This document shows positions 1,785 through 2,673 of a DNA stretch of 8,520 bases, in pieces. Both the position numbers and the translations under genes were made by a program. The stretch's first letter is position 1. Each line of letters opens with the position of its first letter. The DNA lies in the IMG/VR virus record IMGVR_UViG_2534681654_000003, positions 1-8,520 of that record; one strand, given 5' to 3'. The notes beneath the pieces are model-generated. The model saw nothing but the letters and a program-made list of their open reading frames with translations, had not been told where the DNA came from and did no database searches. The stretch comes from a virus (Duplodnaviria > Heunggongvirae > Uroviricota > Caudoviricetes).

Positions 1785-2673
1785 CGTGTTCACCCTCACG
1801 AACTTTCAGGTAGGTATTATCGTTAAGCAGGAAATCAAATCCCTTTTTGTGCCAGACGGTTCCGCGCTGATGGTTTGGGCGCTCTTCGAACATCCATCGG
1901 CAATTTTCGCCTACGTAGCTCAAATAATTTCTCCAGTCCTGCATCGTGAACCCATGCCCGTCAAGCTGGCGGGTTATCACTCCGGCTTTGCGCCAGAACG
2001 TTCGGATCTGGTTTTTACGCTTGTCATTCAGTGCGCGGATTTTTGGCGCTTCAGGAAGGATTTCGTGGTAAGCATCGACAACATCCTGACAGCTAACGGA
2101 AGGTTTTTTCTTGTCAGACTTTTTGTCTGCTGTGGCACTCTCTAATACGTCAGTATTAGAGATAATATTATTATATTCTTTATCTGTGGTAATTTGCTGG
2201 TAATCTGCTGGTACAGTATTGCTTGCAGGCATTGGTATTGCTGGCTTTGAGGTGGTAATTTGCTGGTAATCTGCTGGTACAAAATTTGACTGATAATCGT
2301 CATATTTCTCTACCGAGAAAACTGAGAATTTACCGTGTGAAACCCAGTCAATCATGCCGAGTTTTTTGAACTTTCTAAGCAGGTACTGAACGCGATCTGG
2401 TTTGAGTCCTGTTTCAAACGCCAGAGAGTTTCTACCGCCAAGTAGCTTCCCTCTGCCTACCAGAATTTCTCCTGCGTCAGTCATTACATACTCAGGCGTA
2501 TGCTTTGCTTTGAGGATTAAGTGAACCCACAGATGCGCAGCTTCTGCGTCCTTGTAAAACGGCACATCCATAATTTTACGGTGCAGCAAGGCATACCCCT
2601 TACCGCTGCTTTGATGCGGTTGTTGTAGCCTTCTTGCCTCTCTGGCTTCGGCTAGATTAGATATGTTACTCAT
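1774..2673 (-). CDS. Replication initiation protein, functional analogue of lambda O, with origin iterons embedded in the coding sequence
   Basis: 299-aa ORF directly upstream of and overlapping the helicase gene. Strong SD (AAGGAG) before the ATG at 2673. The middle of the protein carries a repeated peptide ([10 protein letters not shown]) encoded by the DNA iterons. Not similar to lambda O as I recall it. Confidence 0.75.
2150..2281. repeat. Candidate origin of replication: iteron array plus AT-rich tract inside the initiator gene
   Basis: The 30-bp direct repeat gtggtaatttgctggtaatctgctggtaca occurs at 2186-2215 and 2252-2281. Each copy is built from 11-bp units (tggtaatttgc, tggtaatctgc, tggtaca), and a degenerate copy sits at 2231-2245. 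The AT-rich tract 2150-2185 lies on the gene-downstream side, as in lambda ori. Confidence 0.7.

What the first reader, a model, noticed from the sequence alone, without database searches (positions are those of the whole stretch)
2150..2281. Replication origin embedded in the initiator gene: duplicated 30-bp iteron block plus AT-rich tract
Two perfect 30-bp repeats at 2186-2215 and 2252-2281 are built from 11-bp GGTAAT-type units, and an AT-rich tract at 2150-2185 lies on the gene-downstream side. This mirrors lambda ori-within-O architecture with a different iteron sequence, implying a distinct initiator-origin specificity. The repeats also produce a repeated peptide in the protein.
Basis: partly seen in the sequence, partly recalled or inferred. 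Interest (0 to 1): 0.45.

Follow-up and report, generated by a model that had tools for sequence, protein, structure and literature searches.

The report
Phage replication origin inside initiator gene
The two 30-bp repeats and the AT-rich stretch are real and are very probably the replication origin of an HK022/VT2-Sakai-type lambdoid phage, lying inside its own initiator gene. GenBank records of identical phage DNA already mark these same repeats as origin iterons, so the feature is well supported but already known.

Summary
Observation confirmed. Perfect 30-bp direct repeats lie at 2186-2215 and 2252-2281. Each holds two full 11-bp units (TACCAGCArAT) and a truncated third. They sit inside a minus-strand O-like initiator gene (2673..1774), just upstream (in gene direction) of the easiest-to-melt 30 bp of the window (2154-2183).

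Interpretation supported, by comparison only; nothing was tested at the bench. In about 46 related genes, two blocks of three roughly 11-bp units start exactly 66 bp apart. The blocks evolve more slowly than second codon positions. They match within a genome but differ between genomes, and their sequence tracks the N-terminal winged-helix-like domain rather than the C-terminal domain. Physical linkage could explain part of that last association.

It is kept by compensatory changes across the family, and phage lambda has a palindrome in the same position.

Not new. The replication module is 100% identical to VT2-Sakai, whose record AP000422 marks these two blocks "ori iteron 1/2". HK620 marks them rep_origin, and Sf6 and L carry equivalent annotations. 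I found no experimental test of this origin type.

The parts
1774..2673 (-). O-like replication initiator gene (299 aa), the HK022 O / VT2-Sakai O / 'Eru3A' type
   Evidence: ORF and translation. PHROG 345 'replication initiation O-like', E 7e-88. 100% identical to the O gene of VT2-Sakai and the Stx1-converting phage. VT2-Sakai is assigned to the Eru3 replication type (PMC8044961).
2299..2601 (-). Coding region of the N-terminal winged-helix-like domain (about residues 25-125), the presumed iteron-binding domain
   Evidence: AlphaFold2 pLDDT 89-98 with a helix and beta-hairpin pattern. The PDB fold matches are all winged-helix DNA binders, but they are weak (E 0.014-0.06). hhalign against the lambda O N-terminus gives probability 69%, E 4.4e-5.
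2252..2281 (-). Iteron block 1, nearest the N-domain. Units TACCAGCAGAT (2279-2269), TACCAGCAAAT (2268-2258) and truncated TACCAC (2257-2252)
   Evidence: Annotated 'ori iteron 1' in AP000422 and as part of rep_origin in HK620 AF335538.
2216..2251 (-). 36-bp spacer between the blocks. Its sequence is free but its length is fixed. It holds one degenerate unit in 11-bp phase (AGCCAGCAATA, 2246-2236)
   Evidence: Block start-to-start spacing is 66 bp in 45 of the 46 related loci tabulated. The exception, L007, has three blocks, also 66 bp apart. Spacer divergence is 0.28 per site against 0.054 for the blocks. The in-phase degenerate unit was read from the sequence and is inference only.
2186..2215 (-). 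Iteron block 2, next to the AT tract. Units TACCAGCAGAT (2213-2203), TACCAGCAAAT (2202-2192) and truncated TACCAC (2191-2186)
   Evidence: Annotated 'ori iteron 2' in AP000422.
2163..2185 (.). AT-rich tract (8.7% G+C), the presumed DNA-unwinding element. It is A-rich on the sense strand, as in lambda
   Evidence: 2154-2183 is the least stable 30-bp and 40-bp stretch of the window. An AT tract of 10-22 nt at 80-95% A+T is present in all 46 related loci.
2139..2162 (.). Perfect palindrome TCTCTAATAC-tgac-GTATTAGAGA (gene orientation): 10-bp arms and a 4-nt loop. Part of the origin region; role unknown
   Evidence: inverted repeat I2. As single-stranded DNA it folds at -7.6 and -7.5 kcal/mol on the two strands, z = -4.9 and -5.4. 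Across 27 distinct relatives 97% of cells pair, all 10 pairs show changes on both sides, and 0 of 500 shuffles reach this. Lambda has a 28-bp palindrome with a 4-nt loop in the same position.
1777..2106 (-). Coding region of the C-terminal domain (about residues 190-299), the presumed partner-binding (helicase-binding) domain
   Evidence: pLDDT above 90. It is nearly identical in Sf6 and L although their N-domains differ. The variant C-domain found in relatives that encode a lambda-P-type loader is non-homologous.
348..1799 (-). DnaB-like replicative helicase gene ('P', 'Eru3B', P22 gp12-like). It overlaps the 3' end of the initiator gene
   Evidence: Pfam DnaB_C 3e-60 and DnaB N-terminal 6e-32. 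PHROG 19. Records place the start at 1799 or 1784.

Best explanation
This is the phage's theta-replication origin, built on the lambda plan but with its own specificity. The steps below are inferred from anatomy, comparison and the lambda model; none was shown directly.

1. The winged-helix-like N-terminal domain of the O-like initiator binds the six 11-bp direct-repeat units. These form two triplets whose starts are 66 bp apart, that is six 11-bp periods, so all units are in one 11-bp register.
2. The resulting nucleoprotein complex destabilises the adjacent 23-bp AT tract, the most easily melted DNA in the window.
3. The C-terminal domain of the initiator brings in the phage's own DnaB-type helicase, encoded by the next gene.
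4. The perfect palindrome just beyond the AT tract is a conserved part of the origin. Its dyad symmetry is under selection but its sequence is not. I rate this step low: it may form a hairpin or cruciform once the region is unwound, or mark the helicase entry side.

All the DNA elements lie in the part of the gene that encodes a disordered inter-domain linker. This explains how the protein tolerates them.
For: **Anatomy**
- Exact 30-bp repeats with 11-bp sub-periodicity.
- The three units of each block begin in codon phases 1, 0 and 2, so the 11-bp repeat cannot be a peptide repeat.
- The AT tract is the stability minimum of the window.
- The palindrome folds well as single-stranded DNA.
- All elements fall in a linker with pLDDT below 50, between two confident domains.

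**Selection at the DNA level**
- Among 141 pairs of relatives with 3-30% divergence in N-domain DNA, the blocks differ at 0.054 per site. Codon positions 1, 2 and 3 differ at 0.145, 0.091 and 0.406, and the spacer at 0.282.
- The blocks start 66 bp apart in 45 of the 46 loci tabulated; the other locus has three blocks 66 bp apart.

**Concerted evolution**
- Block 1 and block 2 are 95% identical within a genome and 68% identical between genomes.

**Specificity**
- Iteron distance correlates with N-domain distance (Mantel r = 0.71, p = 2e-4) but not with C-domain distance (r = 0.04, p = 0.21).
- Seventeen pairs with the same N-domain but a different C-domain have iteron distance 0.02. Three pairs with the same C-domain but a different N-domain have 0.52.
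- Natural mosaics break at the boundary between iterons and AT tract, window 2183.

**Partner module**
- Five C-domain types precede DnaB-like helicases. One type precedes a lambda P loader (Pfam PF06992, 8.8e-62).

**Palindrome**
- 97% of cells pair, all 10 pairs covary, and no pair varies on one side only.

**Lambda parallel**
- The same order of elements was read from the lambda record.

**Prior annotation**
- The same inference was made for identical or related DNA in AP000422, AF335538, NC_005344 and MW013503 and in PMC8022706.

**Fold**
- Viral structure matches are 'replisome organizer', 'DnaD domain' and 'replication initiator' proteins.
Against: - There are no binding, footprinting or origin-activity data for this origin type here, and I found none in the searchable literature.
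- The iteron-to-N-domain association is partly confounded by linkage. The unconstrained spacer shows the same correlation with the N-domain (r = 0.69).
- The 46 loci are phylogenetically related, so the shuffle and Mantel figures overstate independence.
- Pfam does not place the protein in Phage_rep_O. PDB fold matches are weak (E at least 0.014).
- Unlike lambda iterons, the units are direct repeats without internal dyad symmetry. The stoichiometry and binding mode therefore cannot simply be copied from lambda.
- The CCA core also encodes a conserved proline, so some protein-level constraint on the blocks cannot be excluded.
Confidence: 0.85

Rival explanations
1. The repeats are only a tandem duplication in a disordered protein linker. 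On this view they have no DNA-level function, or they act as a repeated peptide motif.
For: - The blocks encode a repeated peptide, [10 protein letters not shown], in a low-confidence linker.
- Natural variants carry 1, 3 or 4 copies of the 66-bp module, as expected for slippage or unequal crossing-over.
- The proline encoded by the first CCA of each block is invariant in the 7-protein alignment.
Against: - The 11-bp units are read in three different codon phases.
- All three codon positions of the blocks are conserved, more than second positions of the folded N-domain, while the spacer between them drifts.
- The block spacing is fixed at 66 bp, and the two blocks stay alike within a genome across many lineages that carry different unit sequences.
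- An AT-rich stability minimum and a covarying palindrome follow the blocks in every member.
Confidence: 0.04
2. The repeats are initiator-binding sites but serve control rather than initiation, for example titration, handcuffing or autoregulation. The actual start site of replication would lie elsewhere in the phage genome.
For: - Iterons in plasmids and in lambda can act as inhibitory or titrating elements when present in extra copies (PMC3349717).
- An isolated exact 11-mer occurs at 8079-8089.
Against: - The blocks abut the least stable duplex of the window.
- The layout mirrors the experimentally defined lambda origin element for element.
- No other cluster of the unit exists in the 8.5-kb window. 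Exact matches are the four origin units plus the one isolated copy.
Confidence: 0.05
3. For the palindrome only, and compatible with an origin: the hairpin at 2139-2162 plus the T-rich run that follows it on the + strand is an intrinsic terminator. It would stop transcription antisense to the initiator gene before it reaches the iterons.
For: - The consensus scan scores it as terminator-like on the + strand: 10-pair stem and tail TAATATTATT.
- The phage L record carries 'terminator' features on that strand in the same region.
- In lambda the palindrome is likewise followed, on the antisense strand, by the T-rich complement of the A-rich tract (read).
Against: - The stem has only 3 G-C pairs of 10, and the T run is interrupted.
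- Covariation shows no changes on one side only. G-U occurs only at the outermost pair, which fits DNA-level dyad symmetry better than an RNA stem.
- No promoter-like site was found on either strand in 1700-2900, and there is no Rfam match.
Confidence: 0.15

Closest known systems
Annotated origins of VT2-Sakai (AP000422: 'ori iteron 1' and 'ori iteron 2'), HK620 (AF335538: rep_origin) and HK022
   Same: The DNA is identical or about 99% identical. The annotated coordinates map exactly onto window 2186-2215 and 2252-2281. The gene pair is the same: an O-like initiator followed by a DnaB-like helicase.
   Different: Nothing differs in sequence. Those records mark only the two 30-bp blocks. They do not mark the 11-bp substructure, the AT tract or the palindrome. 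The annotation is a prediction, and I found no experimental test.
Phage lambda ori within gene O: four iterons, an A/T-rich tract and a 28-bp palindrome
   Same: - The origin lies inside the initiator gene, in the inter-domain region.
- The order of elements along the gene is the same: iterons, AT tract, then a palindrome with a 4-nt loop.
- The initiator has two domains, with an N-terminal domain that appears weakly homologous (hhalign E 4.4e-5).
- Natural recombination junctions fall in or next to the AT tract.
   Different: - Lambda iterons are about 18-19 bp, each with internal dyad symmetry, and number four (six in 933W, PMC7466680). Here the units are 11-bp direct repeats without dyad symmetry, arranged as 3 + 3 with 66-bp block spacing.
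- Lambda O recruits host DnaB through the P loader. This phage encodes its own DnaB-type helicase.
- The protein does not reach Pfam Phage_rep_O.
Phage L, ST64T and Sf6 gene 18/O-type origins (11-bp TGTCCAACGGA or TGTCCAACGGT repeats)
   Same: They belong to the same protein family and have the same layout and register: two triplets of 11-bp units 66 bp apart. The AT tract, palindrome and C-terminal domain are nearly identical. [quoted passage not shown]
   Different: The N-terminal domain and the unit sequence differ (TGTCCAACGGA/T against TTACCAGCArA). This implies a different initiator-origin specificity.
Replisome-organizer / DnaD-like phage initiators (Pfam Phage_rep_org_N class, e.g. SPP1 G38P)
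   Same: The predicted structure matches viral 'replisome organizer', 'DnaD domain' and 'replication initiator' proteins over both domains (87 hits at E <= 1e-3). From my own knowledge, the SPP1 oriL also lies within the organizer's own gene.
   Different: Sequence similarity to Phage_rep_org_N is not significant (E 0.17). The hosts and partner proteins differ. I did not examine the SPP1 sequence.

Membership tests
Lambda-type origin embedded in the initiator gene | A cluster of repeated sites inside the initiator ORF, between the parts that encode its two domains | tested here: met
   The blocks lie at residues 131-163 of a 299-residue protein, inside a linker with pLDDT below 50 between confident domains.
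Lambda-type origin embedded in the initiator gene | An AT-rich, easily melted tract directly next to the repeats on the gene-downstream side | tested here: met
   2163-2185 is 8.7% G+C. 2154-2183 is the stability minimum of the window. The tract is present in all 46 relatives.
Lambda-type origin embedded in the initiator gene | A palindrome immediately after the AT tract (28 bp in lambda) | tested here: met
   A 24-bp perfect palindrome lies at 2139-2162. It is kept by compensatory changes. The lambda counterpart was read from the record.
Lambda-type origin embedded in the initiator gene | Iterons of about 19 bp, each with internal dyad symmetry | tested here: not met
   The units are 11-bp head-to-tail direct repeats. 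No inverted repeat was reported within the blocks.
Lambda-type origin embedded in the initiator gene | The N-terminal domain of the initiator binds the repeats specifically | not testable with these tools
   Support is indirect only. Unit sequence tracks the N-domain and not the C-domain, and the blocks are under strong DNA-level constraint. Linkage is a caveat.
Lambda-type origin embedded in the initiator gene | The fragment supports replication when the initiator and its partner are supplied in trans | not testable with these tools
   This needs an experiment. I found no published test for this origin type.
Lambda O protein family (Pfam Phage_rep_O, PF04492) | A match to the family profile above the curated cut-off | tested here: not met
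   PF04492 is not listed for the whole protein at E <= 0.01 or for the N-domain at E <= 10. A profile-to-sequence comparison with the lambda O N-terminus gives probability 69%, E 4.4e-5. That suggests distant homology, not membership.
HK022 O / P22 gp18-like initiator with DnaB-type helicase module ('Eru3' of Llarena et al. 2021) | An O-like initiator of this sequence family, followed by an overlapping gene for a DnaB-like helicase in the pR operon after cII | tested here: met
   100% identity to the VT2-Sakai O gene. PHROG 345. Helicase domains DnaB_C 3e-60 and DnaB 6e-32. The gene order cro, cII, orf48 (DUF2740), O, helicase is confirmed. VT2-Sakai is assigned to Eru3 in PMC8044961.
Iteron-type origins in general (winged-helix initiator plus helically phased direct repeats) | Direct repeats at a spacing of about one or two helical turns | tested here: met
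   Period 11 bp and block spacing 66 bp, which is 6 x 11.
Iteron-type origins in general (winged-helix initiator plus helically phased direct repeats) | The initiator has a winged-helix DNA-binding fold | tested here: inconclusive
   The model is confident (pLDDT 89-98) and every top PDB match is a winged-helix protein. The E-values are only 0.014-0.06.

The most novel reading that the evidence does not exclude
The origin may work differently from lambda's in two respects that have not been studied.

1. The initiator would bind head-to-tail 11-bp units with no dyad symmetry, in two triplets held exactly six 11-bp periods apart. This suggests a one-sided, filament-like array rather than lambda's dimers on symmetric sites.
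2. The palindrome is universally conserved for symmetry but not for sequence. It would be a structural signal, a hairpin or cruciform formed on unwinding, that directs loading of the phage-encoded DnaB-type helicase without a loader. Such a structure could also be what defence systems that sense replication intermediates or palindromic DNA detect at phage origins (compare PMC12663957 and PMC11707656).
Probability: 0.2. Interest if true: 0.5.

Novelty: already known. Interest (0 to 1): 0.2.

Why it matters
This replication module drives the Stx2a phage of E. coli O157:H7 Sakai and many relatives. The full origin region occurs in 227 of 5,426 complete E. coli genomes. The literature read here states that phage replication appears necessary for effective Shiga-toxin production (PMC7466680).

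Biochemical work on Stx-phage origins in the papers I found used lambda-like O proteins from 933W and P27. The HK022/Sakai type rests on annotation alone.

The comparative picture assembled here gives precise targets for that untested biochemistry: the 11-bp unit, the fixed 66-bp phasing, the covarying palindrome and the natural variants with 1 to 4 blocks. As a discovery, however, the finding repeats what sequence annotators recorded more than twenty years ago.

Tried and rejected
- **Solved structures.** A sequence search with a family profile gave only a spurious bromodomain hit (E 0.048).
- **Fold search against the PDB.** No match reached E <= 1e-3. The afdb50 library was not available, so I could not compare the model directly with predicted structures of lambda O or P22 gp18.
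- **Rfam.** Nothing relevant over 1500-3600, so an RNA-family explanation for the palindrome was not supported.
- **Close-homologue protein search.** The results were swamped by near-identical E. coli proteins. They were useful only for revealing the 321-aa and 343-aa copy-number variants. Diversity for modelling came from the 50%-cluster search instead.
- **The 80 IMG/VR loci with the same C-domain.** They contained only two N-domain/iteron types, too few for a covariation test. The scan of species-representative genomes supplied the diversity.
- **Lambda palindrome.** My first tool check missed it because I set the arm distance too small. I verified it by script instead.
- **Oberto et al. 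1994 on HK022.** The paper is not held.
- **Extra iteron copies elsewhere in the window.** A search found only one isolated exact 11-mer. I do not interpret it.
- **Specificity code.** I considered deriving one, relating recognition-helix residues to unit bases. I dropped it because about ten N-domain types with shared ancestry are too few.
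Full report
**1. What is in the sequence**

Window 2186-2215 and 2252-2281 are identical over 30 nt. The match extends to 33 of 35 nt. About 3e-11 such pairs would be expected by chance in 8.5 kb.

Tandem Repeats Finder reports an 11-bp period inside each block. The blocks lie in a minus-strand ORF, 2673..1774, of 299 codons. Read in gene orientation, each block is TACCAGCAGAT, TACCAGCAAAT and a truncated TACCAC.

The three units start in codon phases 1, 0 and 2. The 11-bp repeat is therefore a DNA repeat and not a peptide repeat. At the level of the 33-nt block the peptide [10 protein letters not shown] does recur, at residues 132-141 and 154-163.

Downstream in gene direction comes a 23-bp tract of 8.7% G+C at 2163-2185. 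The stretch 2154-2183 is the least stable 30-bp and 40-bp duplex of the whole window, at -26.4 kcal/mol against a mean of -39.8 and sd 3.2.

Directly after that lies a perfect palindrome at 2139-2162, with 10-bp arms and a 4-nt loop. As single-stranded DNA it folds at -7.6 and -7.5 kcal/mol on the two strands, z = -4.9 and -5.4.

**2. What the gene is**

The ORF matches PHROG 345, 'replication initiation O-like' (E 7e-88). It does not reach Pfam Phage_rep_O.

The next gene, overlapping its 3' end, is a DnaB-type helicase (DnaB_C 3e-60, DnaB N-terminal 6e-32). Upstream lie a DUF2740 small ORF, cII and cro, with cI on the opposite strand beyond them. This is the early-right operon of a lambdoid phage.

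The segment 1700-2750 is 100% identical to VT2-Sakai, to the Stx1-converting phage of strain Morioka V526 and to many O157 Stx phages. The gene itself (1774-2673) is about 99% identical to HK022, HK620 and mEp235. Llarena et al. call the VT2-Sakai replication module 'Eru3' and do not discuss an origin (PMC8044961).

An AlphaFold2 model built on 41 diverse family members has mean pLDDT 81.5. It shows:
- a confident N-domain at about residues 25-125, with a helix and beta-hairpin pattern;
- a linker at about residues 130-190 with pLDDT below 50;
- a confident C-domain at about residues 190-299.

Iterons, AT tract and palindrome are all encoded in the low-confidence linker.

The best PDB matches are all winged-helix DNA-binding proteins (CAP, TubR, ArsR/SmtB, MarR), but they are weak, with E 0.014-0.06. 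Against predicted viral structures there are 87 matches at E <= 1e-3, named 'replisome organizer', 'DnaD domain' or 'replication initiator'. A family profile aligns to the N-terminus of lambda O with probability 69% and E 4.4e-5. I read this as suggestive of distant homology.

**3. Already annotated**

GenBank AP000422 (VT2-Sakai) carries misc_binding features 'ori iteron 1' and 'ori iteron 2', bound moiety O protein. They map exactly onto window 2252-2281 and 2186-2215.

HK620 (AF335538) has a two-piece rep_origin at the same coordinates. Sf6 and phage L carry equivalent rep_origin features over their own repeats. [quoted passage not shown]

I found no paper that tests this origin type experimentally. 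The biochemical study of Stx-phage origins that I found used lambda-like O proteins of 933W and P27 (PMC7466680).

**4. Comparative test of the interpretation**

I collected O-like genes from the phage collection, IMG/VR and species-representative genomes. Forty-six loci with the KYD[DE][YF]Q motif at the end of the N-domain were compared.

*Layout.* All have the same arrangement:
- about 8 nt after the motif, a first block of three 11-bp units with a CC(A/G) core;
- a 36-bp spacer of free sequence;
- a second block of three units;
- an AT tract of 10-22 nt at 80-95% A+T;
- a perfect palindrome with 9-10-bp arms and a 4-nt loop.

The two blocks start 66 bp apart in 45 of the 46 loci. The remaining locus, L007, has three blocks, each 66 bp from the next.

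*Unit types.* The unit sequence differs between lineages:
- TTACCAGCArA here and in HK022, HK620 and an Enterobacter adelaidei prophage;
- TGTCCAGCCGA in CobraSix and its relatives;
- rTGCCAACArA in Klebsiella, Erwinia, Pantoea and Yersinia prophages;
- TGTCCAACGGT or TGTCCAACGGA in Sf6 and L;
- AATCCAAAGGA and TGTCCGGAGAA in others.

*Concerted evolution.* Within a genome the two blocks are 95% identical. Between genomes they are 68% identical.

*DNA-level constraint.* Among 141 pairs with 3-30% divergence in N-domain DNA, the per-site differences were:

| Region | Differences per site |
|---|---|
| Iteron blocks | 0.054 |
| N-domain, codon position 2 | 0.091 |
| N-domain, codon position 1 | 0.145 |
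| Spacer between blocks | 0.282 |
| N-domain, codon position 3 | 0.406 |

Constraint on all three codon positions, together with the out-of-frame 11-bp period, is hard to explain by selection on the protein alone.

*Specificity.* Iteron distance follows N-domain distance (Mantel r = 0.71, p = 2e-4) and not C-domain distance (r = 0.04, p = 0.21). Pairs with the same N-domain but a different C-domain have nearly identical units (distance 0.02, n = 17). Pairs with the same C-domain but a different N-domain do not (0.52, n = 3).

There is a caveat. The unconstrained spacer shows the same correlation with the N-domain (r = 0.69). Physical linkage therefore contributes, and this test alone is not proof.

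*Mosaic junction.* Natural mosaics break at the boundary between iterons and AT tract. Sf6-type genes share window 1774-2183 at about 98% identity and then diverge. In E. coli genomes, records in the 90-95% identity band (145 records), as sampled in the spread listing, match only up to window 2183.

*Partner module.* Five C-domain types precede DnaB-like helicases. A sixth, non-homologous C-domain, in Erwinia phage 59 and its relatives, precedes a lambda P loader (PF06992, 8.8e-62) while keeping the same kind of N-domain and iterons. This matches the classical two-domain logic of lambda O, in which the N-terminus reads the origin and the C-terminus reads the partner. That logic is from my own knowledge of the lambda literature.

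*Distant members.* Relatives in Thorsellia, Glaciecola, a Spongiibacteraceae MAG, Bacteroidia, Prevotella and Elusimicrobiales also carry 11-12-bp periodic repeats, 2.5 to 9 copies, 300-490 nt into the gene.

**5. The palindrome**

Across 27 distinct sequences, 97% of cells form Watson-Crick pairs. All 10 pairs show changes on both sides, and no pair varies on one side only. None of 500 shuffles reaches the observed values for percentage paired, cells changed on both sides or covariation score, and slid controls pair at 28-45%.

At least 13 different arm sequences occur. The same arm is found with different N-domain and C-domain types; arm distance correlates with C-domain distance at r = 0.45 and with N-domain distance at r = 0.24. 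What is conserved is therefore the symmetry and not the sequence.

G-U pairs occur only at the outermost position. This fits a DNA-level constraint better than an RNA stem.

Phage lambda has a 28-bp palindrome, GTCAGAGAATTC-tggc-GAATCCTCTGAC, with one mismatched pair and a 4-nt loop. It lies directly after the A-rich tract that follows its four iterons.

The palindrome's function is unknown. One non-exclusive alternative is an intrinsic terminator for antisense transcription. The consensus scan scores it as terminator-like on the + strand, but the stem is AT-rich, no promoter-like site was found on either strand in 1700-2900, and Rfam has no match.

**6. Mechanism proposed**

Everything here is inferred, not shown.

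1. The winged-helix-like N-domain binds the six units, which share one 11-bp register.
2. The complex stresses and opens the adjacent AT tract.
3. The C-domain recruits the phage's own DnaB-type helicase.
4. The palindrome may extrude or fold once the region is single-stranded and so help define the loading side. I give this last step low confidence.

The units differ from lambda iterons in being direct repeats without dyad symmetry. Stoichiometry cannot therefore be borrowed from lambda.

**7. Natural copy-number variation**

Variants of this same initiator exist with three blocks (321 aa) and four blocks (343 aa). One E. coli chromosome carries a single block (277-aa protein). An Sf6-type gene has three blocks.

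This fits unequal exchange between the 30-bp repeats, with a linker and an origin that both tolerate it. The one-block case could also be a defective prophage or an assembly collapse.

**8. Verdict**

The feature is already known, because the very same blocks are annotated as origin iterons in public records.

What this analysis adds:
- the 11-bp unit and the 66-bp phasing;
- quantified DNA-level constraint on the blocks;
- association of unit sequence with the N-domain;
- a conserved, covarying palindrome shared in position with lambda.

Interest is low to modest.

Noticed in passing
window 2139-2162: A perfect 10-bp-arm palindrome lies right after the AT tract. Across the family it is kept by compensatory changes (all 10 pairs covary, 97% of cells pair, at least 13 different arm sequences). 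Its arms assort fairly independently of N-domain and C-domain type. Lambda has a 28-bp palindrome in the same position.
   Followed up: yes
proteins P0001 (343 aa) and P0002 (321 aa); L138:1480-1720 (E. coli CP160125); L007 (IMG/VR): There are natural copy-number variants of the 66-bp block-plus-spacer module. The Sakai-type initiator occurs with four, three and one block. An Sf6-type gene has three blocks. The one-block case could be a defective prophage or an assembly collapse.
   Followed up: partly
window 8079-8089 (+): An isolated exact copy of the iteron unit TACCAGCAGAT lies inside the bet/RecT-like gene, with no neighbouring units. By a rough calculation of my own, about 0.01 exact matches are expected by chance. 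I do not interpret it.
   Followed up: partly
L089 (Erwinia phage 59), L126-L129, L133: These are hybrid modules. They have the same kind of N-domain, 11-bp iterons, AT tract and palindrome. They are fused to a non-homologous C-terminal domain and followed by a lambda-P-type helicase loader (PF06992, 8.8e-62) instead of a DnaB-like helicase.
   Followed up: partly
L120, L123, L131, L132, L134, L135, L136: Distant relatives carry 11-12-bp periodic repeats (2.5-9 copies) at the equivalent position in the gene. They come from Thorsellia, Pantoea, a Spongiibacteraceae MAG, Glaciecola, Elusimicrobiales, Bacteroidia and Prevotella. In the Elusimicrobiales, Bacteroidia and Prevotella loci, A/T-rich short repeats follow. 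Origin-in-gene with units of about one helical turn thus looks family-wide.
   Followed up: partly
window 2805-2837 (-) and 2783-2796 (+): The 33-bp sequence that Hayes et al. 2012 report as conserved around the oop promoter and 5' end in lambdoid phages is present exactly. It overlaps the start of the DUF2740 small ORF (2666-2815). A short terminator-like hairpin lies nearby on the + strand.
   Followed up: no
window 1-8520: The whole window is not collinear with any single phage record. The best match is Stx2-converting phage 86 at 84% coverage and 99% identity. The replication module alone is 100% identical to VT2-Sakai, so the source is a mosaic lambdoid (pro)phage.
   Followed up: partly
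window 2666-2815 (-) and 1786-2145 (+): There are annotation oddities in public records. Several records give 'tail protein' as the product of a CDS lying under or beside this region, for example the small CDS just upstream of O in CobraSix and Pantoea PA-1 and the HK620 hkaW gene, which is the counterpart of the DUF2740 ORF. An antisense 119-codon ORF inside the initiator gene is annotated as a hypothetical protein in the Stx1-phage record.
   Followed up: no
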